This document shows, one piece after another, positions 477 to 52,695 of a DNA stretch of 53,949 nt. Within the stretch, counting starts at the first letter, position 1. Every line of letters begins with the position of its first letter. The notes below the pieces were generated by a model, which searched no databases, had not been told where the DNA came from, and was given only the letters and a program-made list of their open reading frames with translations. This DNA comes from a virus (taxonomy: Duplodnaviria > Caudoviricetes): positions 1 to 53,949 of IMG/VR virus record IMGVR_UViG_3300021093_000101; one strand, written 5' to 3'. Position numbers and translations under genes: made by a program.

Positions 477-2516
477 CTAAAAGAAATCTTCATCGTCAAG
501 AGAGTCATCGCTCTCCATGTCATCGAGCCAAGACGAGCTATTGCTCTTCTTTTCTTGACTCACAATGGGGGTGGTATCGCTCACGATGGGGGTGACAATG
601 GGGAAGTCCGTGTCGGGCTCTTCATAGTCCCAAGAATGGTAAAGTCTTGTTTTCTCGCCGTTGGGGCCGTCTTGGAAACTGCTCGTAATCAGACCCTGCC
701 GCCGCGCCACTTCCAACATCTTGCCAGTGGTGGCCACATCCCAGCTTCCAGAAACCATCGCCACTTGCTGCTTGGTCAGGCGATCATTCTTCCTATTATT
801 CACGGCGTTCACCACTTGATCAAGCTCTTCAGCAGAGCCACCAAGAGGGCCAGCGTACCGCCAGCCGTAGTTGAGAGTGTCGCGCTGGAGCATGTGCTTG
901 CCAGTGAGTCCACTTCTACTTTTCAGCCACTCAAAGACGAACTGGTTGGTATCTGGGTTGTTTTCCTGCCTGGTGAGCTTTACAACTTCACTAACGTTGT
1001 CTACAAAACTCGTAGAGTCGCGGAGCCCGCCATTCTTGTTGAGATGGTGAAGGATGAGGATGGAGCATTTGTAAGTGTTGGCAATATCACGAAGTCCGTA
1101 AATAACATCGCCAGCATTGCTCTTGATTAAATCAACATTCATGCCAGCAAGGCACGCTGTGAGAGAGTCAATGGTGACAAACAAAGGACGATGCTTTCTC
1201 ACATATTCTTCCAATTGTTTCATATGGGCGAAGCGCCAGTTTTCCCAGAAAGCAATGGTGCCTTGTTCAATGCCAGCATCTTGATAACCAATCACTCCAA
1301 GCTTTTCGCTGGTATCCACTAATGGCTCATCACTTTGAATGATGAGGCTTTTGCCTTTCATGCAACGGCGTCCTGACCATGGCTGGCCCAAAGCAATGTT
1401 GAGCGCCCAGTTGTAGGCCACTGTGCTCTTGCCAGTGCCGCCAGACGCTGCCAGTAGCATCACGCTTCCCAAAGGCATGATGCCTGCAATCAGCCAGTCC
1501 CTGCTTTTGTCAGAGTTGGCAATGGTAAGGGCATCAATGGTTTCAATTTCTTCTCTTCCATAAATGCGTCCTTTTGCCTCGTCAATGATTTTGTCAATGT
1601 TTTGCTGATTCATCTTCACGCCACGCTGTTCTAGCCAGGCGCTGGTTTCGTAAGCAATGCGAGCATCATTGGCATAAAGCCCCACCATTCCTTCAATGGT
1701 GGAAATGATTTCTTCATAAGAAGGCTTGCCATCGTGTCCGCTATGTTTGCTTTTGGAAACAATGGAGGAAAGAAGATCGTCTTTAGTGGCACCCTCTTGA
1801 ATATAATCAGCAAGATCTAAGCCATTGCCACTTGGTAAATTTTGCCACTCCCACGAACGAGGATCGGCATAAAGCCACTGCGCTCCAGGATTGTCGCTTT
1901 CAATTTCTTTCATGAAAGCAACGCCTTGCTCATCACGATCAGGCGCTAAAACAATCTTTTTATTCTTGAAAAGCTGACTGTAATCTCCGTTGGTGCGATA
2001 TTGCTTACTGCCGCCAAGGAAAGTAACGCTAGGAAGACCAATACTCCACACTGATTCGCAAGTGAGTTCGCCTTCTACAACAATGATTGGCAAGCCAGTG
2101 CGCTCGCTTTCAGCAATGGCTTCGTTGTATTTATAAGGAAGAATGTTGGCCTTGGCTTCCTGAAGCGCAATCTTATGGTTGGGGGAATGGTGGTCAATGG
2201 AAGGGAAGTCTTGCCAGATGCGCTTGCTTCCGCTGGTGTCGTCACGATGCACCACCACCACTTCCTTTCCATCGCGATCCCTGTAGGCGAAGTCATAGGA
2301 GCCAGGATCTCGCGCAGGCTTTTCCCAGCGTGTCATCGGCGCCAAGGCGTCCCTTATTTCGGCGCGGTGTGCCGGAGAAGGGTCGTGCCAGCAGTTGTAG
2401 CCACCGTTGGCCTTGTTAACGGTAAAGTCGTTGCCACCACAGGCGGGACAAAGGAATTTTCCTGGTTCCTTGCTCGGCTCTAGCTGGTCAAGGAATTCCA
2501 GGATCGAGAAGGCCAT
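477..2516 (-). CDS. primase-helicase (Zn finger + TOPRIM + RecA/AAA_25-type helicase)
   Basis: CPACG Zn knuckle; TOPRIM VVEGE and PDRD; Walker A ASGGTGKS; Walker B VTIDS; LHHLNK motif; acidic DDEDFF tail. Confidence 0.9.
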   Translation of the reverse strand: MAFSILEFLDQLEPSKEPGKFLCPACGGNDFTVNKANGGYNCWHDPSPAHRAEIRDALAPMTRWEKPARDPGSYDFAYRDRDGKEVVVVHRDDTSGSKRIWQDFPSIDHHSPNHKIALQEAKANILPYKYNEAIAESERTGLPIIVVEGELTCESVWSIGLPSVTFLGGSKQYRTNGDYSQLFKNKKIVLAPDRDEQGVAFMKEIESDNPGAQWLYADPRSWEWQNLPSGNGLDLADYIQEGATKDDLLSSIVSKSKHSGHDGKPSYEEIISTIEGMVGLYANDARIAYETSAWLEQRGVKMNQQNIDKIIDEAKGRIYGREEIETIDALTIANSDKSRDWLIAGIMPLGSVMLLAASGGTGKSTVAYNWALNIALGQPWSGRRCMKGKSLIIQSDEPLVDTSEKLGVIGYQDAGIEQGTIAFWENWRFAHMKQLEEYVRKHRPLFVTIDSLTACLAGMNVDLIKSNAGDVIYGLRDIANTYKCSILILHHLNKNGGLRDSTSFVDNVSEVVKLTRQENNPDTNQFVFEWLKSRSGLTGKHMLQRDTLNYGWRYAGPLGGSAEELDQVVNAVNNRKNDRLTKQQVAMVSGSWDVATTGKMLEVARRQGLITSSFQDGPNGEKTRLYHSWDYEEPDTDFPIVTPIVSDTTPIVSQEKKSNSSSWLDDMESDDSLDDEDFF

Positions 2517-3162: not shown

Positions 3163-3987
3163 ATGTCTTCCCCTTTTGCTCAAGTTATCGAAATTACGCC
3201 TGAAATGGCGCAAAATTATTTATCCGCCAACGGCAACAATCGCCCTTTCTCCATCTCTTTGGCGCAAAAATATGCCAAGCAAATGGCTAACGGCGACTGG
3301 TACATAACTGGACAGGGAATTTCCTTGGCAGCAGACGGCTCGGTTCTTGACGGCCAGCATCGACTGCAGGGCATAATTGAACACAATTTCCCTGTCAAAA
3401 TGTTGGTCATGTACAACTGCGACAAAGAATCTTTTACAGTTCTCGACACGGGACGCTCTCGCAATGCCACTGACGTACTGAAAATTGCCGGTTGCGATAG
3501 TCATACAAAAATTATCTCCGCCGGTCTTCGATTGGTTATCCCATTGCTTATCAATCCTTCTAAATGGTTTGCCAGCTCGCAAGGAATTACCAATAAACAA
3601 ATTCGTCAAATGTGGGAAGACAACAAAGACCTTTGCTCTTGGGCTGCAGCTACAGCAAACATGAATAACAATAGAATTTTCTCCAAATCAGTATTCTTTA
3701 CTTTTTTATATTTTGCTGATAGCAGGGGCTGGGGCCACGAGGCTTTAGAGCGTTTTACGGAAGATTTCGTAGAATGCGCCGGACTAGAAAAGGGAAGTCC
3801 GATCTTGGCTTACAGGAATTATATTGCCGCCTATCGCCAGCAAGTAAACATGAACCAACAACGATTGGCGGCCCTCTCCTCGTTAATTAAATGCTTTAAT
3901 CAGACAATGGAAAGCAAGTATGTGGACAGCGATGGCTTTAAACCGCCGGAAAAAGGTTGCATCGCGTCATTGGTTTTTCCTGACTAA
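3163..3987 (+). CDS. ParB/Srx-like DGQHR-domain protein
   Basis: ITPEMAQNYL...NNR...LDGQHRL...LDTGRSR motif series; TTG at 3139 is an alternative start. Confidence 0.8.
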   Translation: MSSPFAQVIEITPEMAQNYLSANGNNRPFSISLAQKYAKQMANGDWYITGQGISLAADGSVLDGQHRLQGIIEHNFPVKMLVMYNCDKESFTVLDTGRSRNATDVLKIAGCDSHTKIISAGLRLVIPLLINPSKWFASSQGITNKQIRQMWEDNKDLCSWAAATANMNNNRIFSKSVFFTFLYFADSRGWGHEALERFTEDFVECAGLEKGSPILAYRNYIAAYRQQVNMNQQRLAALSSLIKCFNQTMESKYVDSDGFKPPEKGCIASLVFPD

Positions 3988-4038
3988 TTCGCGTGAAACA
4001 TCCTTTCTTTTTTTTACAACCCCAACGATTTTTAGACC

Positions 4039-4926
4039 ATGAATTTTCCCACTAATTCCATGAATGAAGCTATGCTCACTGAGCGTATGCTTGGCCATTT
4101 TTCTCCTCTTGAAATTACGCCTGAAGCCTTCAAAAAAGCTTACGAGCTTCCTATTGGTGAGCACGTTGAAAAGAATTACAAGGGCCTTTCCTATTTATCA
4201 TGGCCTTTTGCCTTCCGCTACCTCAACGAACAATTCCCTGGCACTTTTGTTGCCTTTGAAGAAAAGGAAGCTGGCTGGCCAGTGTTTGGTAAAGAAGGCT
4301 GTTGGCTGCTGCGTCCTTATTTGACGGATGGCATCAGGCGCACTCCTGCGCTGGTGTTTCCCATCATGGACAACAAGCACAATGCAGTGAAGGAGCTGGA
4401 TGCTCGTCAAGTGAGCGACAACATTCAACGGGCCAGCGTTAAATGCATTGCTACTTTCACTGGTCTTGGTCTCAAGCTCTATGCAGGCGAAGACATTCCC
4501 AAGGCGGATGATGCGCCAATAGAAGAGCAGCCCGCCCCAAAGTCTGCCCCTGAGGCCAAGACGGTTGCACCTTCTCCCAAGGAGGCTACTGGTGGCACTT
4601 CTAAAGAAGAGTTCAATGGGAAAGAAACCTTGCTTGCTTTCTGCAAAGCCAATCCTCTTGATTATGCAGACGAGCGCACCAGCATGATGGCTGGCAAGCG
4701 AGCCTTGGAAGCCATTGGGCTAGCCAAAGGCGAAGACATCAAGGACGGTGCCATGTTCGCCAATGTCGTGACCACCATGGTCAGCTCCTATATGAGCGAA
4801 AACGGCATCAAGATGACCAAGGCAACCATGGCAAAAGAGCTTGATACGCTTCGGGCCATTTGCGCCGAGGGTACTGCCGAACAAGCAGTGAAGGGAGTAA
4901 AGGTGCTGCTGGAAGGAAAAAAGTAG
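4039..4926 (+). CDS. Sak3/DUF1071-like single-strand annealing protein
   Basis: GLSYLSW, PIMDNKHNA and QRASVKCIA..GLGLKLYAGED motifs; next to an exonuclease and an SSB-like gene. Confidence 0.8.
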   Translation: MNFPTNSMNEAMLTERMLGHFSPLEITPEAFKKAYELPIGEHVEKNYKGLSYLSWPFAFRYLNEQFPGTFVAFEEKEAGWPVFGKEGCWLLRPYLTDGIRRTPALVFPIMDNKHNAVKELDARQVSDNIQRASVKCIATFTGLGLKLYAGEDIPKADDAPIEEQPAPKSAPEAKTVAPSPKEATGGTSKEEFNGKETLLAFCKANPLDYADERTSMMAGKRALEAIGLAKGEDIKDGAMFANVVTTMVSSYMSENGIKMTKATMAKELDTLRAICAEGTAEQAVKGVKVLLEGKK

Positions 4927-4962
4927 ACTTGGCGGCGGCCCGTCTCGCACGGGCCTTCGCTG
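4917..4962 (+). other. candidate -1 programmed ribosomal frameshift signal (A AAA AAG + stem-loop)
   Basis: Heptamer at 4917-4923 immediately before TAG; 7-nt spacer; stem 4931-4961; -1 frame open to TGA at 5028-5030. Confidence 0.7.
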
Positions 4963-5005
4963 GCGTCATTGTTACAAACGAAGACGGCTCCTTTTTTGAT
5001 GGCCC

Positions 5006-5128
5006 ATGTCCCTGGCATTTTCCTTCCTGACAATTTTGGTGACCATCCTTCTGATGGTGGCAATCATGGGCATTTCCATTTTGATTGCATTATTGATTGA
5101 AAAACTTTTTGATTTGGATTCTTATTAA
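5006..5128 (+). CDS. small single-pass membrane protein (40 aa)
   Basis: Read manually: MSLAFSFLTILVTILLMVAIMGISILIALLIEKLFDLDSY. Confidence 0.5.
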   Translation: MSLAFSFLTILVTILLMVAIMGISILIALLIEKLFDLDSY

Positions 5129-5130
5129 CC

Positions 5131-5271
5131 ATGAAAACTATTTTTCTTTTTCTTTCCATCATTCTCCTGACTGCTCCTGCATTTGCCTGCAAGGAGCCCA
5201 TTACAAAAGTGGGCAAGAGCTGTCCGCTGGGCTACTACAGTTCAAGCGGCTATTGCATTCCTAGCAGATAG
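5131..5271 (+). CDS. small secreted Cys-containing peptide (46 aa)
   Basis: Read manually: signal-peptide-like MKTIFLFLSIILLTAPAFA followed by CKEPITKVGKSCPLGYYSSSGYCIPSR. Confidence 0.65.
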   Translation: MKTIFLFLSIILLTAPAFACKEPITKVGKSCPLGYYSSSGYCIPSR

Positions 5272-5278
5272 AGGTAAA

Positions 5279-6076
5279 GTGGCTTGTCTGGATCTTTGTC
5301 TGGCAGCCACTGTGCCTTCTTTTGAGCGCTTTGAGCCCAACCGCATTAGCCTCAATGGCAAGAGGCACTATCAATGTGTGGGTTTTCCCAATGTGCCGGA
5401 GGGCATGCTGTTGCCCTCTGTCACCACTGTTTTATCTTCAATGGCGCCAGTGGCCAAGATCATGGCGCTTATCAATTGGCGCAAGCGTGTGGGAGACGAT
5501 GAAGCTAATCGCCGCACTCGCTTAGCAGCTAATCGTGGCACGTGGATGCACGGCGTGCTGGAAGACTATTTCGATGGGGAAGATATTGAGCATCATCTCG
5601 AAAAAGCTCCTGATTGGCAGCCCTATTTCCAAGCAGTGGAGCCTTTTCTGGAAGGAGTGGTCGAGCCAATTCTCGTGGAAAGCGCAGTGGCCTGGTACGA
5701 CACCAATCTCGGTATGGGCTACTCAGGCACGCTTGATATGGTGGCGCAAATGACCAGCGGCTCTATTGCCTTGGTCGATTGGAAGACCAGCTATAAGGAA
5801 AAGAAAGACTACCAACTGGCTGATTACAAGCGGCAACTTGGCGCTTATTCCATGGCAGCAGAACAAATGTACGACCAGCCCATTGACGAGGCTTGGTGCG
5901 TGATTGCCTGCTACGACCCAGAAGAAGAAGATAGCGAGCCGTCGCTGCAGCTAGTCCACCTCGATGGCTTTGAGCTGCTCAGCCAGCAGCGCATCATGGA
6001 AGACACCGTGAAGAGATACTTTAGCCAGTTCTACCCTGGCGGCAAGGCATTTGCGCTAACGATGGATAGGGGGTAA
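5279..6076 (+). CDS. PD-(D/E)XK exonuclease (Cas4/lambda-exo-like)
   Basis: LPSVTTVL, RGTWMH, VE, SGTLD, VDWKT and QLGAY motifs; start uncertain (GTG 5279 after GAGG). Confidence 0.85.
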   Translation: MACLDLCLAATVPSFERFEPNRISLNGKRHYQCVGFPNVPEGMLLPSVTTVLSSMAPVAKIMALINWRKRVGDDEANRRTRLAANRGTWMHGVLEDYFDGEDIEHHLEKAPDWQPYFQAVEPFLEGVVEPILVESAVAWYDTNLGMGYSGTLDMVAQMTSGSIALVDWKTSYKEKKDYQLADYKRQLGAYSMAAEQMYDQPIDEAWCVIACYDPEEEDSEPSLQLVHLDGFELLSQQRIMEDTVKRYFSQFYPGGKAFALTMDRG

Positions 6077-6126
6077 GATTGGCAAGCCCTGCGGGGCATC
6101 AACCATCACTCCCCTGGAGAAACACC

Positions 6127-6375
6127 ATGGCCAATCGGCCTCCTATCACTGCCGCCATCGACCTCACCCCTGAATTGCTTAATGCAATGAAGAAGGCTGG
6201 TCCCAATGATCGCGGCAACTATTCCCTTGACATGGCAGTCTGGGAAAATACCAAAAAGACTTCTGAGCGCTCGCCTGGTTTTACGGGCAGCATCAAAGTG
6301 AAGGGCGCAGACAAGGACAGCCCCAAGGGCTATGCCTCAGTTTGGCAAAACAGTGGTTCCGACGATCTGTTCTGA
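6127..6375 (+). CDS. putative single-stranded DNA-binding protein
   Basis: AVWEN...SPGFTGSI motif, acidic-aromatic SDDLF C-terminus, position after annealase and exonuclease. Confidence 0.55.
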   Translation: MANRPPITAAIDLTPELLNAMKKAGPNDRGNYSLDMAVWENTKKTSERSPGFTGSIKVKGADKDSPKGYASVWQNSGSDDLF

Positions 6376-26859: not shown

Positions 26860-29800
26860 TTAACGAAGGCCAATACGACGGCGAGAATTGGGAGAGTTAG
26901 CGAGACGGTCAAGAGCAATAGTGGCTCCACGAGAAGCGCCTTCCCTGACAGCTATTCTACGAGTTTCGGCCATAGCAACTTCCAACTGGGCTCTATCCAC
27001 ATATTCCACGCCATTAATAGTCGTACTTTGGAAACTCATTGATAATACAGGAGTCGTAGCATTATTGCTTGCAGTATTGCCCATGCGATCACGAATGCTC
27101 GTGTCTTGAAGTTGCACTGGAATTGAACGACCATCAGGAAGCGGAACAATGGCTTCGTTGTAGCGCCCTTCTCCGACCAGTCCAAGCGTTGGGCCGGTAA
27201 CCATGCCTCCATTGGCAAATGGCGTTACGGGGAATGGTTCCCAGCCGCCAGTGGCAATGCCACCATTGGCCCCAAAACGCCCGCCAAGAAATCTAGGCAC
27301 TCTTAAGGCGCCAGTGCCAGAAAGATTATTGCTGGCCGTGGCGAGAGAACCACCTCCACCACCTCCACCAAACAATCCTCCTAAACCACTAAAAGCACTG
27401 CCCAAGCCAGCAACACTCATGAGGATGCTGCCGATACCACCAAGAACGCCAGATGTGCCTCCGCTTTGAATTTGTTGCACGCCAGCAGCAATACCCAATA
27501 CTGAGCCAGCGGCGGCGCCAAGAGTTTGCACTGCTCTTCCAAGTGCTTGCCCAAAGCTACTACCTTGTCTTTGAGTTTCTTGAGTGCCAGCAGCTAAAAC
27601 ATTGCTAGCCATTTCAGTTTGCTGACTGATGCCAAATGTAGCATTTGAAAACACGTCTCTAGTGGCAGCAATGGATTGCATATAATCTTCTTGAACGCTA
27701 GTGAGAGAGCTAAGTTGTTCAGAAATGCCAGCAAAATTAACGCTTGTATCCCCCATTGCTTGTGCATATGTAACGCCAGTCATGTCTACACCTGCTCCGC
27801 CAAGTAAACCAGCAAGACCTCCAACAGCAGTAGTTGCTGTCTGTCCAGAAGGAGCAGCACCACCTCCTATTGCATTGGTAAGTTCTTTAATCGCTTTTGT
27901 ATTGTCAATTGTGGCATTTGTATTGGCTTCTACTGGCGTAGCTGCTTTCTTTTGTTCTTCGTCTATGCCTGGAATATTTTTAGGAAGGAACATATCTCTT
28001 AAGCTTTCCTGGAAGAATTTTTCCACTGGGGCCATGGTGAAGTCCAGGAAAATTGTCAATACACGATCAGTAAGAGCTTCTTGGAACTGCTTTAACGCAT
28101 CAGTTGCATCTTCACCTTTAATAACGGCCTTCAAGAAGCCTTTGTAGTCATTGCTTGTGCTCTTGACGAAATCATCAATCAATGCACGAGTTTGCTCAAG
28201 ATTTCTCTTCACCTCTTGCAGGCGATAGATTTCGTCTTCCTTTTCCTTGGAAATACCTTTGTTTTCTTGACGAATCCTGAGACGACGTTCTTCTTCGTCG
28301 GAAATAGCACGCAGCAGTTTAAGTTCTTCTTTTAAATTAGCAATAACTTTATCGCTAATTCCTTCTTTTTTGAGTAGATTATTTTCATCGATAAGCTTGT
28401 TGGCTTCGGGGAGTAATTTTCTAAGCTTCTCTATTAAATCATTTTGAATTTTGTTTCTCTTATTTGCTTCGTCTGTCGTAATAATTCCATCTTTAACTTT
28501 TTGATTGTTTTCTTCAATAACTCTTGTCGCCTCTGCGATGCCAGCGTTGATCCTTTCTTGGATTTCATATTTTTGCATGGCTGCATCTAAGTCGTCACCT
28601 TCCAGCCCTTGAGCCTCAAGACGATTCCTTTCCGCAAGTAATGAATTTTGAAGCTTTTGTTCTGCTGGAGAGAAAATTGACGCCACATAATTTTCCAGCG
28701 CTAATTGAATTTTGCCATAAGCAATCTCTTCCGCTTGCAGGAGAATTAAGTTTTCTTTGCGTTGTGCAATTTCTACTTGCTGAGCCGCTAACGCATCACG
28801 CTTTTCACTGCCAGGCACTTTGCGGGGGGCGCCAGGACCAACTGCCTCGGGAGCCAAGGAAGCCAAGTGTCCAAGCTGGAAGTTGCCCTCTGGAGTGGTC
28901 ACTTGCGCCATTAGTCCTCCTCTGCCTCCCACTTGACCATATTGGCCAATGGAAGCGCCTGGTTTCAGGGCAATGGGAGTACCTTGGGGAGTGAGATAGT
29001 CAATGGCGTTATAGCCATGCCCAGCAGCACCCCTAGACGTGCCAAAACTGCTTGCCGCCTTCCCGCCGATTTCCAAATACTTATCCACTAAATAACGCAA
29101 AGTCTTTTCTGTCATGCCAGCCGCTTGTGCGTGGAGATGAGGACCAGTAGAACGTCCTCGCGTGAGAGCGTCTTGGGACAAAGCTCCACCAGTTGTTGCT
29201 ACTGTCCCAGGCAGAGCGGCGCCGCCAGCCACGCTTCCTTGCGCCAAAAGCACAGCGCTACGTGCTTTAAGCAGCGCCGATTGCCTTTCCATTTCGATTT
29301 GAGACAATTCTTTCTGCAGGCGAATGGCTGCTTTTTGAAAGCTATTGGCACGAGCTTCTTGAAGATCAAACTCAGCATTGATCATGCTCATGCGATGCTC
29401 GTGCAGTTGCTCAATGCGATCAATTTCTGCTTGAGTGAAAGCCTTGGCAAGCTGGTCTTGAAGGTTGTAGTAACTTTCAAGGTTAGTTGTTTTAGTATCT
29501 TGGAGCGTATTTTCTGCTTGCGTAGCGGCAGGATCAGGCTTGTTTAGTCCAAGCTGGGCGGCCCTTCGTTTTGCCACCTCTAAGTCTGCTCGCCCTTCGG
29601 TTTCTACTTTCTCGAGTGGCTCCTTCAGTTTATTTAACGACCCAAGCAAAAAGCCTTTGGTTGCTTCCTCGCCTACTTCTACACCAAGCCGCTCGGCCTC
29701 TCTTTTTTGCGCTGGAGTTAGAGTAATGAACTCGACCACTTTACCACCAGGAGCATTCCTTTTCGTGCCCGTTGTACCCTCTATCTGTTGAATAAAACCT

Positions 29801-32800
29801 TCCAAATCTTGCCTGTCCGCTTTGTTCTCGGCAAGAGTCCTTTCTATCATGGCCACGTTGCCGGTTCTGCGGGCATCCGCCATTGAGTCGATAGCTTGCT
29901 TGGCTCTGTCTGCCGCCTCTTTCGCGCTATTTCCTACTGACAAAAATGCAGCAGCGAGACTTCCCAAGAGGACAACTACCGCCCCAATACCAGTGCCAAT
30001 TAACAGTCCCTTGATGGCAAGCCCAAAAGCAGTCGTTGCTCCACTGGCGCCTAACGTGGCGATTTGCGCCCCCGTGGCTTGAACACCAAGAATCCTGTAG
30101 GCGGCAGCTAAAATAGTTGCGCCTGCTGCCCCGCTCCTGCTTATGCCCTCAACGGCTTGCATCGTATTCAGCGTTCCCATTAAAAGCAACGCCGCTAGCT
30201 TGGCCGCATTAAAGCCTAGAACTAACAAAGCAAGATTGCCAATAACAGAAGTAAGATTTCCTCCTAGAAATGTAAACAATGGGTTGAGAACATTGCCAAT
30301 TATTCCGGCCAAATTCATTGTAAAAGTAGCCGCTTTTTGTACTTCCGCCACGAAGGCTTCAATATTTTTAACTTGTTGAGCAATAGCTGGATCTTTTGCG
30401 GCTTCGTTTAAAGATTCATACTTGGCAGTCAAAGCTGCAACATTCTGCTCGGCGGCCTTAATTTCCTTGGCATCGGCTCCACCAGTCTTCAAAGCGGAAA
30501 CATCCGATTGAGCAGCCTCTAATTGCTTTCTTACTCTGTCCTGCTCGCCCATGGCGATTTGAGCCGCAGCGGAAATCTCCCTCATCGCTCCCCCGAGTGG
30601 TCCCAGAATGGCTTGCGCCGCAGCATTAGCCAATGGAGCGAAGCTTTCCAATGTGCGCTGGAAATCGCCGCCAACAGTATTCAACAAACCCTGCAACGAC
30701 CTACCCGCTGCTTGAGCGCCAGTGCCAAAACGATTCATCAATTCATCACTTACCTTCGCAAACACTTCTCTAAATTTGCCGCCGACAAACACTCCATCTT
30801 CCATCGCCTTGCTGAAATCCTTGACGGACATGCCAGCGGCTTTTGCAAAGATGGCCAAGGCACCAGGCAGTACGTCGCCTAACTGTCCTTTAAGTTCTTC
30901 GCTCATGATTTGCCCCTTGCTGGCCATTTGCCCAAAGGCATAAATCACTCGCTCCGCTTTGTCTGGAGTGAGCTGAAGGGCTGCAGTGGCGGCACTGATG
31001 CCGGTAAAGAGTTTTTCAATGGACCCCGAATCGAAGCCAGTGGGGGCCATGGAAGCATAAAGACGAGTGAAGCCCGTGCGTGTGGTTTCTAGATTGAGGC
31101 CAAAGGCTCGCTGTACGTTGTCCACGTACAACAGCTCCTTGGCGAACGTGCCGGTGTCTTGCGTTGCCGTTTGTAACGCATTATTGTATTGTTGTTGACT
31201 CTTGGCCGCATTGAGCACTTGACCAGGGAGGCTCGTAATAAAAGCAAGGCCCTTATAGGCAGTGCCGTAGAGCAACACTTGCTTTGTTGCCATTAAAAAT
31301 TCACCGCCGATCTCACGCAAGCCGCCAAGGAGAGGCACTTGCGAAGCTCGAAAGTTTTTCATTGATGCGCTAGCCACGTCCAAGACCGTCTTAAACTTCT
31401 CCATTTGACTGCCTGGACCGATGAACGTGGCGGGGCCTTGACGCCCTCCCAGTGGTAAAGTGTCCGACGGAAAGCCACCAGGAGGCACATAGCCCTGTCC
31501 AGTAAAACCGCCTCCACCTCCTCCACCGCCGCCTCTTTCTAGTGATCTCCTGAATCCAATGATGCCAGCTTCTTGCTCGAGAACCGCACGCTCTCGTTCC
31601 GCCGAGCGTTCATAAGCTCGCCTAATCCGATCTTCTTGCGCCGCATTGGCGCCAGTCATCCCAGCGGGCGGAAGACGTAGCTGGCTTGAGCCTCCCATCG
31701 CATATCTTTGTCCAGCACTAAAGCCCATTTGCTGCGCGATGGTATTAAAAATACCTTGCACACCTGGATCTTTGCGCTTAGAAGCAAACGTTTGTCCTGC
31801 TCCAGGCAGTAAGCCTCGATTTAATTCTTGGCGTAAAGCTACAAATGCTGCTCGTGCGGCATTGCGAGCGTCAATGGCCGCAGCCTTGTTGATAGCCTCT
31901 TGGAATTTCTGTCTTTCTTCCAATGGCAATACCTTGCCTGTCATGTCGATCTTGGCTCGCCCAGCACCCACCTCTGGCGCCCTGTATGAGGGTTGATCAG
32001 CTAACATGCGCTGAAAGCCCTTTGTGCCGCCTGCAGCAGGTAACAGGCGTCCACTCATTTGCGTGGCTATGGCATTTTGAAAATCAATGACAATAGCCTT
32101 CTGGATGGCGCTAGCGAATTTACGCGCATCCAGCATTTCGCGAGATGGCAACACACCTGCAATTTTTCCTGCAGAAAGTGCACGTAACGTTGTGGCCGCA
32201 TTGTTCATTGCGTCCGCAAGTTTGCGAGTAGATTGCGGAAGGTAACTGTTAGCAGAGAAGGCCTCGGCAAACATTTGCGTGCTCTTGCGCAGTTGTTCGT
32301 AGAAATTCCGAACAACTTGCTCTTGAGCACCTATGCCTCCACCAGTCTGTCGGCCTGGCGCAAGCAATCGTCCTGTTATAGGAGGAATCATTTTTGCCGC
32401 GATTTGCGCGGCGTATTGACTAGCGCCTTGAAGGTTTTGCGCAAAACGATCGAAAGATTTTAACTCTGTTTTTAATACTTGTCCGTCAAAAATTTCAGCA
32501 ACTTTAATTTCTACAACTTTGAAATAACTAGCAAGAATTGCATCGACACGTTTCTTTAATGTTTCTATGGAAAGAGCAAGTTTTCCAGAAGGTCCTTCTG
32601 GAAACATAGGCCCTCCAGCGGCAAAAATCGCTTGGAGACCAGTTGCAACAGACGCCTTTTGTGCACTTGTCCTGCTAATACTTGGGAGCAAGCCAGCAGG
32701 ACTCGCCTCTGGAGGGGCTGCCGACAGCAAACGCCCGGATGATGATGGTCCCGCAAAAACGCGCTGTGGCGTTACTGCTGGCCAAGAAATCGCGGGAAGA

Positions 32801-34101
32801 CTTTTTTGCGCCGCCAGTTTTGCTTGATTGCCTGCCTGCCTCAACAGAACAGAACCCACCTCTGTGATTACGACTTTGACAATATTGTCAAGCGTAATAG
32901 TACGCTGCCCCGCTTGAATTAATCTTTGGACAGTGGCATTTATGCCTTCCAAGCTTTGCTTCGCCAATGACTTTGTAGAGCCCCTAGCAAAACCAGCCAA
33001 TGCGGCGACGCCTCCAACCCCTAAGGCGCCTATTAACATCGCTTCTCCGCCTACTTCCAGAGCTTTATGAAGAGCCTGCAAGCTAACCTCTTGTACTACG
33101 CCAGTTAGGCCAGCGGTATCACCAATGCTAAGGCGACCCAGTTGCCTTCCAACTCCCAATACTCCCATGCCGCCAAGCTTGGTTAGTCCGCCGGTCACGC
33201 CAGCTCCAATACCTTTAGCGCCACCAACAATCGCTCCGGTTGCACCACCTCCTAATGCACCTAACGCTCCTCCACGCACTCCAGACCTTGTGGCAGCTCT
33301 TCTTCCCTCTTCAAAGCTCGTTTCAAAAGCAAAACCAAGAGACCTACCAGCGCTGCGCAACAGTGCAAGTAGCCGATCTAAGGCTTGGCTGATTCGCGTT
33401 TCGCCTTTTGCAATACTGGATTCAATTCCAAGAACAAGCCCTTCCCCAGTGTCTTTGCCAATCTTTTCTGTTTTTTTCGATGGAGATCGAGTGTCAAGGC
33501 TGGTGCGCAATTTTTCAAGGACAGCATTGCCCATTTTTGCCGCCGCCTGACCGGCCTCCGTTGTTCCATCGAGAAGCTTATTAATAAGCCCTTTGTTGGC
33601 GTCATCAGCAGCCAACTCAAAGCCCTGGCGTAATTGCTTTTTAATTTCCTCAGTTGACTTGCTAAGGTCAATTCCACCAATGCCTTCGTCAATTGCTGTT
33701 TGTGCAACACGTCGAATCGCGTTTTTATCAAAACCTCCTTCTCTGACCAGTATGCGAGTTAAATTTTGCAACTCTTTAACGCGAGCAGCGCCGCCAGCGG
33801 TGCGCTGTCCAATCACTCCTGCCTTTCCGGCAGAGGCGGGCGGCATTGTCGCCAAAGTCCTGGCTAGTTCTTGAGCCCTTTCTAGTTCTTTTTTAAGATT
33901 GGTATTAACTTCAACGTAAAATTTCTTATCGCTTATATAACGATTTAAAAGTCTAAATTCACTAACAATTTTTGTTCTGTCAAATTTGACGCTTAGATTG
34001 ATTGACTGACCAGCAAGATCTGTGCCAAGACGATTTAACTGCCCGCGAAAATGGCTAAGATCTAAACCTACCTTTAGCAGAAGTTCAGCGTCTTGAGCCA
34101 C
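26860..34101 (-). CDS. tape measure protein with an M23-like peptidase segment
   Basis: 2413 aa, A/G-rich helical; tape-measure motif AFGQMASKGQIMSEELKGQLGD; STGPHLH; C-terminal FANGG.V.GPT.GLVGEG...EAIVPL. Confidence 0.92.
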   Translation of the reverse strand: MAQDAELLLKVGLDLSHFRGQLNRLGTDLAGQSINLSVKFDRTKIVSEFRLLNRYISDKKFYVEVNTNLKKELERAQELARTLATMPPASAGKAGVIGQRTAGGAARVKELQNLTRILVREGGFDKNAIRRVAQTAIDEGIGGIDLSKSTEEIKKQLRQGFELAADDANKGLINKLLDGTTEAGQAAAKMGNAVLEKLRTSLDTRSPSKKTEKIGKDTGEGLVLGIESSIAKGETRISQALDRLLALLRSAGRSLGFAFETSFEEGRRAATRSGVRGGALGALGGGATGAIVGGAKGIGAGVTGGLTKLGGMGVLGVGRQLGRLSIGDTAGLTGVVQEVSLQALHKALEVGGEAMLIGALGVGGVAALAGFARGSTKSLAKQSLEGINATVQRLIQAGQRTITLDNIVKVVITEVGSVLLRQAGNQAKLAAQKSLPAISWPAVTPQRVFAGPSSSGRLLSAAPPEASPAGLLPSISRTSAQKASVATGLQAIFAAGGPMFPEGPSGKLALSIETLKKRVDAILASYFKVVEIKVAEIFDGQVLKTELKSFDRFAQNLQGASQYAAQIAAKMIPPITGRLLAPGRQTGGGIGAQEQVVRNFYEQLRKSTQMFAEAFSANSYLPQSTRKLADAMNNAATTLRALSAGKIAGVLPSREMLDARKFASAIQKAIVIDFQNAIATQMSGRLLPAAGGTKGFQRMLADQPSYRAPEVGAGRAKIDMTGKVLPLEERQKFQEAINKAAAIDARNAARAAFVALRQELNRGLLPGAGQTFASKRKDPGVQGIFNTIAQQMGFSAGQRYAMGGSSQLRLPPAGMTGANAAQEDRIRRAYERSAERERAVLEQEAGIIGFRRSLERGGGGGGGGGFTGQGYVPPGGFPSDTLPLGGRQGPATFIGPGSQMEKFKTVLDVASASMKNFRASQVPLLGGLREIGGEFLMATKQVLLYGTAYKGLAFITSLPGQVLNAAKSQQQYNNALQTATQDTGTFAKELLYVDNVQRAFGLNLETTRTGFTRLYASMAPTGFDSGSIEKLFTGISAATAALQLTPDKAERVIYAFGQMASKGQIMSEELKGQLGDVLPGALAIFAKAAGMSVKDFSKAMEDGVFVGGKFREVFAKVSDELMNRFGTGAQAAGRSLQGLLNTVGGDFQRTLESFAPLANAAAQAILGPLGGAMREISAAAQIAMGEQDRVRKQLEAAQSDVSALKTGGADAKEIKAAEQNVAALTAKYESLNEAAKDPAIAQQVKNIEAFVAEVQKAATFTMNLAGIIGNVLNPLFTFLGGNLTSVIGNLALLVLGFNAAKLAALLLMGTLNTMQAVEGISRSGAAGATILAAAYRILGVQATGAQIATLGASGATTAFGLAIKGLLIGTGIGAVVVLLGSLAAAFLSVGNSAKEAADRAKQAIDSMADARRTGNVAMIERTLAENKADRQDLEGFIQQIEGTTGTKRNAPGGKVVEFITLTPAQKREAERLGVEVGEEATKGFLLGSLNKLKEPLEKVETEGRADLEVAKRRAAQLGLNKPDPAATQAENTLQDTKTTNLESYYNLQDQLAKAFTQAEIDRIEQLHEHRMSMINAEFDLQEARANSFQKAAIRLQKELSQIEMERQSALLKARSAVLLAQGSVAGGAALPGTVATTGGALSQDALTRGRSTGPHLHAQAAGMTEKTLRYLVDKYLEIGGKAASSFGTSRGAAGHGYNAIDYLTPQGTPIALKPGASIGQYGQVGGRGGLMAQVTTPEGNFQLGHLASLAPEAVGPGAPRKVPGSEKRDALAAQQVEIAQRKENLILLQAEEIAYGKIQLALENYVASIFSPAEQKLQNSLLAERNRLEAQGLEGDDLDAAMQKYEIQERINAGIAEATRVIEENNQKVKDGIITTDEANKRNKIQNDLIEKLRKLLPEANKLIDENNLLKKEGISDKVIANLKEELKLLRAISDEEERRLRIRQENKGISKEKEDEIYRLQEVKRNLEQTRALIDDFVKSTSNDYKGFLKAVIKGEDATDALKQFQEALTDRVLTIFLDFTMAPVEKFFQESLRDMFLPKNIPGIDEEQKKAATPVEANTNATIDNTKAIKELTNAIGGGAAPSGQTATTAVGGLAGLLGGAGVDMTGVTYAQAMGDTSVNFAGISEQLSSLTSVQEDYMQSIAATRDVFSNATFGISQQTEMASNVLAAGTQETQRQGSSFGQALGRAVQTLGAAAGSVLGIAAGVQQIQSGGTSGVLGGIGSILMSVAGLGSAFSGLGGLFGGGGGGGSLATASNNLSGTGALRVPRFLGGRFGANGGIATGGWEPFPVTPFANGGMVTGPTLGLVGEGRYNEAIVPLPDGRSIPVQLQDTSIRDRMGNTASNNATTPVLSMSFQSTTINGVEYVDRAQLEVAMAETRRIAVREGASRGATIALDRLANSPNSRRRIGLR

Positions 34102-34137: not shown

Positions 34138-34605
34138 TCATTGCTCTTGATTGCGCCCGGCAAAAGCTTTTAGTTCATCTGCCAAGAGAGCAATAACGCG
34201 ACCATCCATCACGCGCTCTTTCATGAGACGCTGAAGCACAATAAGACTCTCATCCGTCACTCCATCTTCTTTTTTGATTGCTTTGGTATCAAATGGCAGG
34301 AAATCTTCTGGTTTAATCTTGCTCTTCTTGCCCGCCATCATTCCAGCAGCCATGGCGCCAAGCTTTGCCGTGGCCAGGCTTTCCGTATTGTATTTAGTAA
34401 TATCGTGCTTCTCTAAAAATTTCAGGGCAAGCTTTACATCGTGAACGCGCTGCTTTCCAAAATTATGCGCATACCAACGATCATCCTTATAGTCGGACGA
34501 ACAGAGGCGAAAATACACCTCGTTCCAATTGGTCATGTTTTTTAGGAAATGACGCGCTTGGTCCTCTAGCTGTTCTGCGACTGAGCTGGAGCTTTCCTTT
34601 GAGCT
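34138..34605 (-). CDS. tail assembly chaperone T segment (-1 frame extension of G)
   Basis: Frame is open from the slippery site at 34605 through MTNW... to TGA at 34138. Confidence 0.75.
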   Translation of the reverse strand, partial: SSKESSSSVAEQLEDQARHFLKNMTNWNEVYFRLCSSDYKDDRWYAHNFGKQRVHDVKLALKFLEKHDITKYNTESLATAKLGAMAAGMMAGKKSKIKPEDFLPFDTKAIKKEDGVTDESLIVLQRLMKERVMDGRVIALLADELKAFAGRNQEQ

Positions 34606-35120
34606 TTTTTTGCTGCGGTGTTAGCCTCCTTGACTTCTGCGTCTTGCTCAGCAGCAATAAATTCAACCACTTTTGTGATAATAGAACGAGGCAGGCCCTT
34701 GGTGTCTTCTAAGTCCCAATCAGACAGGTCTTGCCATTCGTTGTCAATCATGCCCTGACCTCGAGAGCGCATAAAGGCAGTAACCATGCGAGCATTAATG
34801 GCTTCCACGGAAGTAGTGCCAGTAATCATTGCAAGAGTTTCGTCAGTGAAGTCTGACAGCAGTTCTGCTTCGCTAATAGCACCACCGCCTTGAAGAAGGG
34901 CAAATGCTTCATCCAAGGGGATTTCCTTCGATGCAGCAATGCGCTTGGCCAATTGAACGGCACGAATGGTGGCTTGGCTTTGAAGCTTGCTGATTTCCTC
35001 TTGCTCAATGGCTTCCGCCACAAGCCAGCCATTGTATTTCTTCAGTCGAATGTCAGGAAGAAGATCGAAATAATCTTCAGCCTTAGTTTGGACTAGGAAG
35101 CTGTACTTGCTCATGATCAA
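34566..35120 (-). CDS. tail assembly chaperone G
   Basis: Position upstream of the TMP; GCA AAA AAA slippery run near the 3' end. Confidence 0.8.
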   Translation of the reverse strand: MIMSKYSFLVQTKAEDYFDLLPDIRLKKYNGWLVAEAIEQEEISKLQSQATIRAVQLAKRIAASKEIPLDEAFALLQGGGAISEAELLSDFTDETLAMITGTTSVEAINARMVTAFMRSRGQGMIDNEWQDLSDWDLEDTKGLPRSIITKVVEFIAAEQDAEVKEANTAAKKAQRKAPAQSQNS

Positions 35121-35340
35121 GAATGTTTAGCAAAGCGTTGAACACTTTCACTCGTTCATGACTGGAGCGAAATTCTTTGGGAATCTCGACCAGGAACGAA
35201 TGGTTGTCGTTTGAAATTCTAATGGTGGTTTCGCGACAAGCAACAAGACAAAGAATGCCAGCTTGTAAAGCAGTGCCTTCTATTTCGTTGTTAATAGCGT
35301 GGACTGTTTTATCATGGCTATGGAGATAGTCAATTTTCAT
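35083..35340 (-). CDS. hypothetical protein
   Basis: 85-aa ORF coupled to both neighbours. Confidence 0.6.
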   Translation of the reverse strand: MKIDYLHSHDKTVHAINNEIEGTALQAGILCLVACRETTIRISNDNHSFLVEIPKEFRSSHERVKVFNALLNILDHEQVQLPSPN

Positions 35341-41973: not shown

Positions 41974-42690
41974 CTATGGGAAAAAAGTAATGGGCGCTGT
42001 TTCAATATTAACGCCTGGCCACACTTTGCCTCGATGCAAAATTAATGCAGTCATCACGCGCTCGGCTAAGAAAGAAATATAACGACAGTTATATCCTTCA
42101 ATTTGCATAATTTGCTTTTGATGGTTGTCCCAAATAGGCCACATACAGTCAAGAAGCGTTTGCATAATTTCGCAATAGTTTGCATGGTACCCTCGCGCCA
42201 TGATATGACCAAAGAAAACATTCTGATTGAATGCTTGTTCAAGATCAGTGCGGGAAATTGGCATGAAGCCTTTGTCAGCCGCCCATAAAGCAGCTTCGAT
42301 GCCATTCATGCCTTCATGCCCTTCACGGTATTGACGGGCGATGGAAAAAGGAAAGTTGACAGGCTCTGGAATATAAACCGTATCTTCCTTAGAAGGTTCT
42401 AATGCTTCATCGCTCCATTGCCTGCGATATTGAGCATTGCCAATAAATTCATCAGTGGCATTATTAATAAGCCAATAAATACCAGTGAGTTCTGACCACC
42501 ATTTGTTATACGACGAAATATTGTGACCAGCATTGTCCAAAAGCCATCCCGCATGATTTAATTGCAATTGTTCTGCCATGGAAAGATTTTCAGCCCCTAA
42601 TTTCATCCAATACAAAGAAGCGGAGGAGGAATAGCGAGGTTCATTGTCTCCATGACACATCACATAGAGATGGTGATCTTCAGCTTTCAT
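41974..42690 (-). CDS. DUF4422-like glycosyltransferase
   Basis: NIS.YN.WWSELTGIYW, IG..QYRR and R...FLAER motifs. Confidence 0.75.
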   Translation of the reverse strand: MKAEDHHLYVMCHGDNEPRYSSSASLYWMKLGAENLSMAEQLQLNHAGWLLDNAGHNISSYNKWWSELTGIYWLINNATDEFIGNAQYRRQWSDEALEPSKEDTVYIPEPVNFPFSIARQYREGHEGMNGIEAALWAADKGFMPISRTDLEQAFNQNVFFGHIMARGYHANYCEIMQTLLDCMWPIWDNHQKQIMQIEGYNCRYISFLAERVMTALILHRGKVWPGVNIETAPITFFP

Positions 42691-44616: not shown

Positions 44617-44677
44617 AAAACCATTAAAGCTTGCTCAATAATACAAGGCTTTTAGACTGTGGCAAAGGGAAGGCGAC

Positions 44678-47089: not shown

Positions 47090-47105
47090 GCCAAATCAGC
47101 AATGG

Positions 47106-52619: not shown

Positions 52620-52695
52620 GCCCCTGTAGCCCAATCAGGCAGTAGGCAAACGACTTAAAATCGTTCAAGTGCAGGTTCAAATCCTGCCAGGGGCA
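52620..52695 (+). tRNA. trnL: tRNA-Leu(UAA), short variable loop, no encoded CCA
   Basis: Acceptor GCCCCTG/CAGGGGC, discriminator A; anticodon arm AACGA-CTTAAAA-TCGTT; T arm GCAGG-TTCAAAT-CCTGC. Confidence 0.92.

What the first reader, a model, noticed from the sequence alone, without database searches (positions are those of the whole stretch)
4901..5030. Annealase with a dnaX-style -1 frameshift adding a tail that resembles the DnaX (tau) C-terminus
Seen: the Sak3/DUF1071 gene ends GGA AAA AAG TAG, placing the heptamer A AAA AAG (4917-4923) directly before the stop. After a 7-nt spacer comes a long stem: GGCGG-C-GGCCCGT / ACGGGCC-T-TCGCT (4931-4961, loop CTCGC), with no U-tract. An SD-like AGGTG (4901-4905) lies 11 nt upstream. 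The -1 frame reads VDLAAARLARAFAGVIVTNEDGSFFDGPCPWHFPS* (35 aa, stop 5028-5030). Established: A AAA AAG plus upstream SD plus downstream hairpin is the E. coli dnaX frameshift architecture, and the tau C-terminus binds the Pol III alpha subunit. Inference: D..A..LA..F.G.IV resembles, from memory, the extreme C-terminus of cyanobacterial DnaX (A..LA.FF.G.(I/V)). I recognised no DNA polymerase in this phage. A minority of annealase subunits could therefore carry a tau-mimic tail that recruits host Pol III to recombination intermediates. I know of no description of such a system.
Basis: partly seen in the sequence, partly recalled or inferred. Interest (0 to 1): 0.85.

Follow-up and report, generated by a model that had tools for sequence, protein, structure and literature searches.

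The report
Frameshift-made tail on phage annealase
A group of viruses of freshwater and estuarine cyanobacteria appears to make two versions of its DNA-annealing protein by letting ribosomes slip back one base at the end of the gene, which adds a short conserved tail whose job is still unknown.

Summary
The frameshift reading is strongly supported by comparison; the tau-mimic reading is not.

The Sak-family annealase gene (4039-4926) ends GGA AAA AAG TAG. A hairpin follows at 4931-4961, and the -1 frame stays open for 35 codons.

All 86 homologues examined carry an in-frame X_XXY_YYZ heptamer 0-3 nt before the stop: 40 A_AAA_AAG and 46 G_GGA_AAG. These are the window, the isolated phage S-CBS4, 79 IMG/VR contigs and 5 contigs binned into MAGs. 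The codon before the heptamer encodes 6 or 5 different residues but always ends in the base that slippage needs.

The -1 tail (25-45 aa, consensus VDLAAARLARAFAG...DGSPL) is the only frame open in 60 of 60 distinct cores. Its pN/pS is 0.50, against 0.94-1.38 for four of the other five frames and 0.60 for one antisense frame. Downstream hairpins of at least two architectures show compensatory changes and fold more stably than synonymous-codon randomisations.

This is most likely a programmed -1 ribosomal frameshift that makes a tailed annealase isoform. I found no report of it in print.

The tail matched nothing in Pfam, NCBIfam, PDB or 1.84 billion proteins. Cyanobacterial DnaX could not be fetched, so Pol III recruitment remains an untested guess. 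These phages do lack a recognisable DNA polymerase.

The parts
4039..4926 (+). Sak-family single-strand annealing protein gene, zero frame (295 aa, stop TAG 4924-4926). It has a Rad52-like N-terminal domain (about residues 1-150), a disordered linker (152-189) and a helical C-terminal domain (190-295).
   Evidence: ORF list. Pfam PF06378 E 1.4e-17. PHROG 8492 Sak-like, E 1.6e-42. AlphaFold2 model, mean pLDDT 72. Foldseek top hits are the 80alpha Sak SSAP (8qe9, 8pq8), then Rad52 and Mgm101.
4893..4905 (+). Purine-rich SD-like stretch (GGGAG 4893-4897, AGGTG 4901-4905), 11-19 nt upstream of the slip site. It is weak in this window.
   Evidence: Sequence. Best duplex with an anti-SD motif is -6.4 kcal/mol. 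Among relatives, 24 of 28 distinct G_GGA_AAG upstream 24-mers have a match <= -8 kcal/mol at 6-16 nt, against 3 of 25 for A_AAA_AAG and 3.6% of 810 internal 24-mers.
4917..4923 (+). Slippery heptamer A_AAA_AAG in the X_XXY_YYZ register, directly before the zero-frame stop.
   Evidence: Conserved as A_AAA_AAG (40) or G_GGA_AAG (46) in 86 of 86 homologues. The codon before it encodes S/G/A/T/R/E or Q/E/A/V/K but always ends in A or G respectively.
4931..4961 (+). Stimulatory hairpin: 5-bp outer stem, 1-nt bulges, 7-bp G+C-rich inner stem, loop CTCGC. It starts 7 nt after the heptamer and has no T-run.
   Evidence: Folds. Type-A alignment A4, 32 sequences: 92.5% of cells paired, 9 of 15 pairs with compensatory changes, 0 of 500 shuffles as high, and slid controls reach at most 52%. 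The native folds beat synonymous-codon randomisations.
4923..5030 (+). -1 frame tail of 35 codons (VDLAAARLARAFAGVIVTNEDGSFFDGPCPWHFPS) plus stop TGA 5028-5030. Joined after ...EGKK it would give a trans-frame isoform of 330 aa.
   Evidence: The tail is conserved in 85 of the 86 homologues (L082's contig ends 4 nt after the stop), with 63 distinct tails among the 81. It is the only frame open in 60 of 60 distinct cores, and pN/pS is 0.50.
5279..6076 (+). Context: PD-(D/E)XK exonuclease, the usual partner gene of an annealase.
   Evidence: Pfam PF12705 E 1.1e-8. Conserved downstream of the annealase gene in the related loci.
477..2516 (-). Context: Toprim + AAA_25 primase-helicase, the only replisome protein recognised in the window.
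   Evidence: Pfam PF13481 E 2.3e-26 and Toprim_2 E 7.6e-4. 28 homologues in IMG/VR.

Best explanation
This is a programmed -1 ribosomal frameshift site at the 3' end of a phage annealase gene. Most ribosomes stop at TAG 4924-4926 and make the 295-aa Sak-type annealase. A fraction pause with the two lysine tRNAs on AAA AAG, held up by the hairpin 7 nt downstream and probably by the stop codon in the A site. They slip back one base to AAA AAA and go on in the -1 frame for 35 codons. The result is a second isoform that carries a conserved tail: an alanine- and arginine-rich stretch of helix-like composition (D-L-A-A-A-R-L-A-R-A-F-A-G), then a short hydrophobic stretch and a D-G-S-P-L/F turn; this reading of its shape is from the residues alone, and its fold was not predicted with confidence.

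Shown by comparison: the slippery site, the downstream RNA structure and the tail peptide are each under selection across the whole S-CBS4-like phage clade.

Inferred: Sak-type annealases work as large rings, and their C-terminal domains are the contact points for partner proteins. The frameshift would therefore set a fixed low number of tailed subunits per ring, and the tail would be a docking peptide for a partner that is still unidentified. I put about 0.85 on the frameshift and the tailed isoform, and about 0.5 on the docking-peptide role.
For: (1) Slip site. 81 of 81 evaluable homologues have an in-frame X_XXY_YYZ heptamer 0 or 3 nt before the stop (35 A_AAA_AAG, 46 G_GGA_AAG). These are the window, S-CBS4 and 79 IMG/VR loci; L053 runs off its contig. 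In addition, 5 of 5 loci from genome contigs have it, down to 51% protein identity. Selection acts on the bases, not the residues. The preceding codon is TCA/GGA/GCA/ACA/AGA/GAA in 40 of 40, where third-position A has a background of 0.20. It is CAG/GAG/GCG/GTG/AAG in 46 of 46. Gly is always GGA, against 0.19 background usage. On a quick tree of 71 annealases the heptamer type changes 7 times, and well-supported branches force at least 3 changes.

(2) Tail. There are 63 distinct tails with D2, A4, A6 and F12 at >= 90% and G14 invariant. Entropy per -1-frame codon position is 0.95/0.74/1.40. pN/pS is 0.49-0.50 in the -1 frame, against 0.94-1.38 in four of the other five frames and 0.60 in one antisense frame. 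Stops occur in 0 of 60 cores in the -1 frame, against 12-48 of 60 in the others. The signal persists after the hairpin, at 0.53-0.63. L048 has a 24-nt insertion that keeps the frame.

(3) No start of its own. 58 of 81 loci have no ATG/GTG/TTG in the -1 frame between the upstream stop and the conserved Asp codon, and 70 of 81 have no ATG.

(4) RNA structure. Hairpins lie a few nt after the heptamer, with at least two architectures in different registers. Type A: 32 sequences, 92.5% paired, 9 of 15 pairs compensatory, 0 of 500 shuffles as high. Type B: 20 sequences, 87.6% paired, 33 compensatory cells against 11.1 expected, 0 of 500. Native 54-nt segments fold at a mean of -24.2 kcal/mol, against -15.3 for synonymous-codon randomisations, and 52 of 63 are within the best 5%.

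(5) Other points. With G_GGA_AAG the runs are only 3 nt long, so transcriptional slippage cannot be the general mechanism. The same window has the classical tail-chaperone arrangement upstream of the tape-measure gene, with A_AAA_AAA at 34611-34605 (-) and a 160-codon -1 ORF. This suggests, though it was not tested, that this phage also uses A-rich slip sites elsewhere. In passages of PMC11846896, Sak of phage 80alpha forms 17-18-mer rings and its C-terminal domain coordinates with the SSB tail. In passages of PMC11611040, the Red-beta C-terminal domain binds lambda Exo and SSB.
Against: There is no direct evidence of the trans-frame protein. No RNA run holds the sequence, and no proteomic or ribosome-profiling data were available. 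Efficiency is unknown.

The window's own hairpin is not exceptional against dinucleotide shuffles (z = -1.64). Eleven of 63 distinct sequences do not exceed synonymous randomisations at the 5% level: L026, L027, L040, L041, L042, L046, L048, L049, L058, L060 and L079. Five of these (L040, L042, L046, L049, L060) form the clade with tails reading LALCFNG.

For type B, the count of pairs with a change on both sides (5) is not above shuffles (219 of 500 reach it). The sequences are related, and the structures were derived from them, which inflates such tests. An SD-like stimulator is common only with G_GGA_AAG (24 of 28) and rare at the right spacing with A_AAA_AAG (3 of 25).

None of the 120 best annealase gene calls carries the tail in frame, so there is no natural fusion to prove that the joined protein works. 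The tail has no detectable relative. Whether the host's lysine tRNAs make AAG slippery, as in E. coli, is unknown.
Confidence: 0.85

Rival explanations
1. The tail mimics the C-terminus of host DnaX (tau), so that a minority of annealase subunits recruit host Pol III alpha to recombination intermediates in a phage that has no polymerase.
For: No family A, B or C polymerase was found in 5 of 5 records, among them complete S-CBS4 and three contigs at least 95% complete. The phage must therefore borrow the host polymerase, and a sub-stoichiometric adaptor would make sense. From recall, not from any call here: in Bacillus phage SPP1 the annealase G35P contacts the phage helicase, and host tau contacts that helicase.
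Against: No sequence support was found. 0 of 62 tails hit Pfam at E <= 10. There was no DnaX model in NCBIfam. The best PDB hit had E 0.22 and none was tau. The 21 hits in 1.84 billion proteins were 6 short ORFs of the same tail and 15 long proteins matched in 5-23 repeated stretches; the 7 I scanned are Ig/cadherin, FG-GAP and similar repeat proteins or carry only weak marginal matches, and none is DnaX. Short motifs could escape these searches, and cyanobacterial DnaX was not compared directly.
Confidence: 0.06
2. The frameshift is real, but the tail works within the phage's own machinery. It would dock on the phage primase-helicase or exonuclease, or fold back on the annealase to tune ring assembly or DNA binding.
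For: Annealase C-terminal regions are the known contact sites for the exonuclease partner and SSB (passages of PMC11611040; PMC11846896). The annealase, exonuclease and primase-helicase genes are neighbours and are conserved together. The primase-helicase ends in an acidic stretch with an invariant terminal Phe, and the 98-aa ORF after the exonuclease ends SDDLF. Both are possible ligands for a basic helix.
Against: Nothing points directly to any one partner. No second copy of the tail motif exists in the window or in the flanks of the loci.
Confidence: 0.25
3. The -1 ORF is a separate small gene, translated from its own start or by reinitiation, and is not joined to the annealase.
For: Gene callers have predicted 30-41-aa proteins from this frame in some contigs (P0003, P0004, P0006, P0007, P0009, P0011).
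Against: 58 of 81 loci have no ATG/GTG/TTG upstream of the conserved Asp in that frame. In L052 the frame opens only at the heptamer. A separate gene would not explain the invariant slippery heptamer or the selected third base of the preceding codon.
Confidence: 0.03
4. The conserved element is only an RNA signal (processing, stability, or control of downstream genes), and the peptide is not made. Alternatively, the shift happens by RNA polymerase slippage on the A run.
For: The hairpins are under selection beyond what the peptide requires. A_AAA_AAG contains six A in a row.
Against: Codon-periodic conservation and low pN/pS extend past the hairpins (0.53-0.63). The -1 frame is open in 60 of 60 cores. 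46 of 86 sites are G_GGA_AAG, with runs of only 3, which is too short for the transcriptional slippage known from long homopolymers (that rule is from recall).
Confidence: 0.04

Closest known systems
E. coli dnaX -1 frameshift (tau/gamma)
   Same: It uses the same heptamer A_AAA_AAG and a downstream hairpin a few nt away. In many relatives there is also an SD-like element about 7-16 nt upstream. It produces two isoforms of a DNA-metabolism protein at a fixed ratio. The dnaX signals are recalled; Blinkowa and Walker 1990 was seen only in a reference list.
   Different: In dnaX the shift truncates the protein (gamma loses the tau domains). Here it extends the protein by 25-45 aa. The site sits at the very end of the gene, with the zero-frame stop as the next codon. 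The gene is an annealase, not a clamp-loader subunit.
Phage tail assembly chaperone G/GT frameshift (lambda G_GGA_AAG) and T7 capsid 10A/10B
   Same: The second heptamer used in this clade, G_GGA_AAG, is the lambda G/GT site (recalled). In both, a shift near the gene's end adds a C-terminal extension to a minority of molecules of an oligomeric protein. The window has its own tail-chaperone-type site at 34611-34605 (-).
   Different: Those cases concern virion assembly proteins. This one concerns a recombination protein, and the extension is a short peptide rather than a domain.
Sak / Rad52-like phage annealases (PF06378; phage 80alpha Sak, lactococcal Sak)
   Same: The N-terminal domain matches the family by sequence and fold. 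It has the flexible linker plus C-terminal partner-binding domain layout described for 80alpha Sak.
   Different: Only S-CBS4 among 328 matching phage records shares the full length. The others share the N-terminal domain at 25-32% identity. I did not examine their gene ends for slip sites. I found no report of a frameshift in any annealase.
Red-beta C-terminal domain and annealase-SSB/exonuclease contacts
   Same: The C-terminal parts of annealases serve as docking modules for partners (passages).
   Different: Those modules are made in frame on every subunit. Here an extra peptide would be present on only some subunits, and its partner is unknown.

Membership tests
Programmed -1 ribosomal frameshift cassette (dnaX / G-GT type) | X_XXY_YYZ heptamer in the zero-frame register | tested here: met
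   4917-4923 A_AAA_AAG. 86 of 86 homologues have A_AAA_AAG or G_GGA_AAG in register.
Programmed -1 ribosomal frameshift cassette (dnaX / G-GT type) | -1 frame open after the site and conserved as protein | tested here: met
   Open in 60 of 60 distinct cores. pN/pS is 0.50, against 0.60-1.38 in the other five frames. 63 distinct tails share one motif.
Programmed -1 ribosomal frameshift cassette (dnaX / G-GT type) | Downstream RNA structure about 5-9 nt from the site, maintained by compensatory change | tested here: met
   Eleven of 63 distinct sequences do not exceed synonymous randomisations at the 5% level, five of them from one clade (L040/42/46/49/60).
Programmed -1 ribosomal frameshift cassette (dnaX / G-GT type) | Upstream SD-like stimulator (dnaX type only) | tested here: inconclusive
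   Weak in the window (-6.4 kcal/mol). Present in 24 of 28 G_GGA_AAG upstream regions but only 3 of 25 A_AAA_AAG ones at 6-16 nt.
Programmed -1 ribosomal frameshift cassette (dnaX / G-GT type) | Trans-frame protein actually made | not testable with these tools
   No RNA holder was listed. No proteomic data were available.
Sak / Rad52-like single-strand annealing proteins (PF06378) | Sequence match over the family threshold, and a Rad52-like fold | tested here: met
   64.1 bits against a cut-off of 22.3. Foldseek hits 8qe9/8pq8 (80alpha Sak), Rad52 and Mgm101.
DnaX (tau) C-terminal, Pol III alpha-binding segment | Detectable similarity of the tail to DnaX C-termini | tested here: not met
   There were no tau or DnaX hits in Pfam (0 of 62), NCBIfam, PDB or 1.84 billion proteins. 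Caveat: the motif is short, and no direct comparison with cyanobacterial DnaX was possible.
DnaX (tau) C-terminal, Pol III alpha-binding segment | Binding to DnaE | not tested
   No host genome could be reached (the genome-contig scan gave no cyanobacterium).

The most novel reading that the evidence does not exclude
In polymerase-less S-CBS4-like cyanophages, the frameshift-made tail turns a few subunits of each annealase ring into an adaptor. Recombination intermediates would then be converted directly into replication forks. That would be a recoding-controlled switch for recombination-dependent replication.
Probability: 0.15. Interest if true: 0.85.

Novelty: new member of a known kind. Interest (0 to 1): 0.62.

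Why it matters
Programmed frameshifting in phages is textbook for tail chaperones and some capsid genes. I found no report of it in any recombination protein (full-text searches; passages of two frameshift surveys).

This case has unusually clean comparative support, and it exists in a cultured phage-host pair (S-CBS4 and Synechococcus CB0101), so it can be tested at the bench. It implies that annealase rings can be deliberately heterogeneous, which matters for understanding how phages without a polymerase link recombination to replication. It may also matter for the use of annealases in recombineering, where only the annotated short form would be cloned.

It also shows that the annotated Sak-like gene of S-CBS4 and its relatives in metagenomes probably encodes a second, unannotated product.

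Tried and rejected
- **Structure-based docking.** One complex-prediction job used the tail (alignment A1) as partner against the primase-helicase residues 290-679 (A6), the exonuclease (A7) and the annealase C-terminal domain 186-295 (A3). The verdict was 'no answer' (score 0.00), which counts neither for nor against binding.
- **Expression.** No RNA holder was listed; the 20 DNA runs are lake or freshwater metagenomes.
- **Protein Atlas for the tail.** Best score 0.89, below the level of a lead.
- **tblastn of the tail against 50,697 phage records.** Only a chance hit at E 5.
- **Rfam on 4700-5200.** Nothing near any gathering score; the best was Alpha_RBS, 14.3 bits against 38.
- **Word-indexed search for longer proteins that carry the tail.** One protein, P0001 (214 aa). 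Its last ~54 residues are the -1 frame of an annealase 3' end plus the tail, and its first ~160 residues match nothing in IMG/VR. I read it as a gene call in the -1 frame on an unusual contig and did not follow it further.
- **Second copy of the tail motif.** A six-frame HMM scan of the window and all loci held at that point found none.
- **Tail in frame.** None among the 120 best of 691 annealase homologues; the other 571 were not seen.
- **Host DnaX.** The window is a virus record without drawn relatives. The single genome-contig scan returned only 5 phage-like contigs, binned into Verrucomicrobia, Gammaproteobacteria and Rhodobiaceae MAGs. The direct comparison with cyanobacterial DnaX was therefore left undone.
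- **Promoter at the TAGACT box, or a terminator reading of the hairpin.** 0 promoter-like sites in 3800-5400, and no T-run after the stem.
- **Closed or unused.** Supplementary files of papers were not consulted. The careful tree search did not finish, so the tree is the quick one with a midpoint root.
Full report
**What is there.** The window is a 53,949-base IMG/VR virus record, estimated 75% complete. Its nearest named relative is Synechococcus phage S-CBS4. The ORF 4039-4926 (+) encodes a 295-aa protein of the Sak single-strand annealing family: Pfam PF06378, E 1.4e-17, and PHROG 8492. An AlphaFold2 model (mean pLDDT 72) shows a Rad52-like N-terminal domain, a disordered linker (152-189) and a confident helical C-terminal domain (190-295). 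Foldseek puts the 80alpha Sak structures first, then Rad52 and Mgm101.

The gene ends GGA AAA AAG TAG. This places A_AAA_AAG (4917-4923) in the X_XXY_YYZ register directly before the stop. A hairpin lies at 4931-4961, and the -1 frame is open for 35 codons to TGA 5028-5030.

**Is it more than chance?** Not in the window alone. AAAAAAG occurs 20 times against 25.9 expected. The local fold has z = -1.64. The SD-like match is weak. The case rests on comparison.

**Slip site in relatives.**
- A scan of IMG/VR gave 84 relatives, of which the best 80 were kept (61-83% identity).
- Together with the window and S-CBS4, 81 could be read to the end of the gene; L053 runs off its contig.
- All 81 have an in-frame slippery heptamer 0 or 3 nt before the stop: 35 A_AAA_AAG and 46 G_GGA_AAG.
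- Five more loci from genome assemblies, three of them only 51-53% identical, all have A_AAA_AAG directly before the stop.
- The codon in front of the heptamer encodes Ser, Gly, Ala, Thr, Arg or Glu in the A type, yet ends in A in 40 of 40.
- In the G type it encodes Gln, Glu, Ala, Val or Lys, yet ends in G in 46 of 46.
- The Gly codon inside the heptamer is GGA in 46 of 46, although GGA makes up only 19% of the Gly codons in these genes.
- On a quick tree of 71 distinct annealases the two heptamers interchange 7 times, and well-supported branches force at least 3 changes (the careful search did not finish).

Selection therefore keeps the site slippery rather than keeping a particular sequence or residue.

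**The tail is a coding sequence in the -1 frame.**
- The 81 loci give 63 distinct tails of 25-45 residues with one motif, consensus xVDLAAARLARAFAGxxxxxxDGSPLxE. G14 is invariant, and D2, A4, A6 and F12 are at 90% or more.
- Variation is greatest at the third codon position of that frame: entropy 0.95/0.74/1.40.
- Over 60 distinct 72-nt cores it is the only one of six frames without a stop in any sequence. Its pN/pS is 0.50, against 0.94-1.38 in four of the other frames and 0.60 in one antisense frame.
- The signal holds for the part beyond the hairpins, at 0.53-0.63.
- One relative (L048) has an eight-codon insertion that keeps the frame.
- The peptide cannot generally start on its own. 58 of 81 loci have no ATG, GTG or TTG in that frame between the upstream stop and the conserved Asp.

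**RNA structure.**
- Nearly every relative has a strong hairpin a few nucleotides after the heptamer, but in different registers.
- The window's type (32 sequences) has 92.5% of cells paired and 9 of 15 pairs with compensatory changes. No shuffle of 500 reaches this, and slid controls reach at most 52%. Many of the changes are at synonymous sites of the tail, such as CGT...GCA to CGC...GCG.
- A second type (20 sequences) pairs the Arg-Leu-Ala-Arg codons with the Phe-Ala-Gly codons. It has 87.6% paired and 33 compensatory cells against 11.1 expected. Its count of covarying pairs (5) is not above shuffles.
- Further types occur in smaller clades. In the clade whose tails read LALVFKG (L032, L036, L038, L041, L079) the predicted hairpin lies in another register, over those codons.
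- Native 54-nt segments fold at a mean of -24.2 kcal/mol, against -15.3 for randomisations that keep the peptide. 52 of 63 are within the best 5%.
- The 11 exceptions are the clade L040/42/46/49/60, plus L026/27, L041/79, L048 and L058.
- An SD-like element 6-16 nt upstream accompanies 24 of 28 distinct G_GGA_AAG contexts. It accompanies only 3 of 25 A_AAA_AAG contexts, and 3.6% of internal control 24-mers.

**Mechanism.** These are the three classical signals of bacterial -1 frameshifting, as known from dnaX (A_AAA_AAG, upstream SD, downstream hairpin) and from the lambda tail chaperone (G_GGA_AAG); both comparisons are from recall. The zero-frame stop codon directly after the site may add to the pause (recalled 'shifty stop' effect).

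Transcriptional slippage cannot be the general route, because the G type has no long run. Assembly error is excluded by the two heptamer types, by an isolate genome, and by contigs of three other runs that show no indel. The window also carries the usual tail-chaperone arrangement before its tape-measure gene, with A_AAA_AAA at 34611-34605 (-) and a 160-codon -1 ORF. I conclude, with about 0.85 confidence, that a fraction of ribosomes make a 330-aa tailed annealase.

**What the tail does.** This is open.
- It matched no Pfam family (0 of 62 tails at E <= 10) and no relevant NCBIfam model.
- It matched no PDB chain better than E 0.22 and gave nothing in the Atlas.
- A profile scan of 1.84 billion proteins gave 21 hits. 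Six are 30-41-aa gene calls of the same tail. Fifteen are long proteins matched in 5-23 repeated stretches; the seven I scanned carry Ig/cadherin, FG-GAP and similar repeats, or only weak marginal matches, and none is DnaX.
- No other gene of the window or of the flanks carries the motif.
- Among the 120 best of 691 homologues, none has the tail in frame.

The tau resemblance is therefore unsupported. It is not refuted, because a short motif can escape these searches and I could not reach cyanobacterial DnaX.

The premise that the phage lacks a polymerase holds. Passages in two papers show that annealase C-terminal regions are partner-docking modules, and that 80alpha Sak forms 17-18-mer rings. 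From this I infer that the frameshift fixes a small number of tails per ring, and that the tail docks a partner from the host or phage replication or recombination machinery.

**Novelty.** Full-text searches for frameshifting together with annealing proteins, or in cyanosiphoviruses, found nothing on this. Passages of the PRFect paper and of a 2025 frameshift survey do not mention recombinases. The S-CBS4 record annotates only the short gene. It is a new member of a known kind of signal, in a new class of gene.

Noticed in passing
window 34138-35126 (-): This looks like the classical tail-assembly-chaperone frameshift. The ORF 34566-35126 ends ...AAKKAQRKAPAQSQNS, with GCA AAA AAA GCT (A_AAA_AAA, 34611-34605). 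A 160-codon -1 ORF (34138-34620) runs up to the 2413-aa tape-measure gene (26860-34101).
   Followed up: partly
window 6079-6375 (+) and 477-2516 (-): The 98-aa ORF after the exonuclease ends ...GSDDLF. The primase-helicase family ends in an acidic stretch with an invariant terminal Phe (...EFF). Both resemble the acidic-aromatic tips of SSB tails. The 98-aa ORF has no Pfam or PHROG hit.
   Followed up: partly
L113, L114 (IMG/VR): Two primase-helicase homologues match over 2961 nt for only 640 query residues. That implies an insertion of about 1 kb inside the gene, possibly an intein or a homing endonuclease.
   Followed up: no
P0001 (214 aa): This protein ends with the -1 frame of an annealase 3' end plus a full tail. 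Its first ~160 residues match neither the annealase nor anything in IMG/VR. It may be a rearranged locus or a gene call across a broken annealase.
   Followed up: partly
L082-L086 (genome contigs): Phage-like contigs carrying this annealase sit in MAGs labelled Methylacidiphilales, Verrucomicrobia, Gammaproteobacteria and Rhodobiaceae, one of them a 76.8-kb contig. They are probably phage genomes mis-binned into MAGs rather than evidence of those hosts.
   Followed up: no
window 5006-5128 and 5131-5271 (+): Two small hydrophobic ORFs (40 and 46 aa, the second resembling a signal peptide or lipoprotein) lie between the annealase and the exonuclease. The first overlaps the last 8 codons of the tail. 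Neither has a PHROG hit. The number of small ORFs in this gap varies among relatives.
   Followed up: no
window 52620-52695 (+): A single tRNA gene, tRNA-Leu(TAA). No tRNA-Lys is encoded, so the slip would rely on host lysine tRNAs.
   Followed up: no
window 4927-4937: In run X9 the two laid contigs end at 4927 and begin at 4937, at the foot of the G+C-rich hairpin. This looks like an assembly break rather than biology.
   Followed up: no
window 41974-47894 (-/+): A cluster of glycosyltransferase-like genes (DUF4422, Gly_transf_sug, Glycos_transf_1), a DAO-type oxidoreductase and a xylose-isomerase-like TIM barrel lies next to the portal gene.
   Followed up: no
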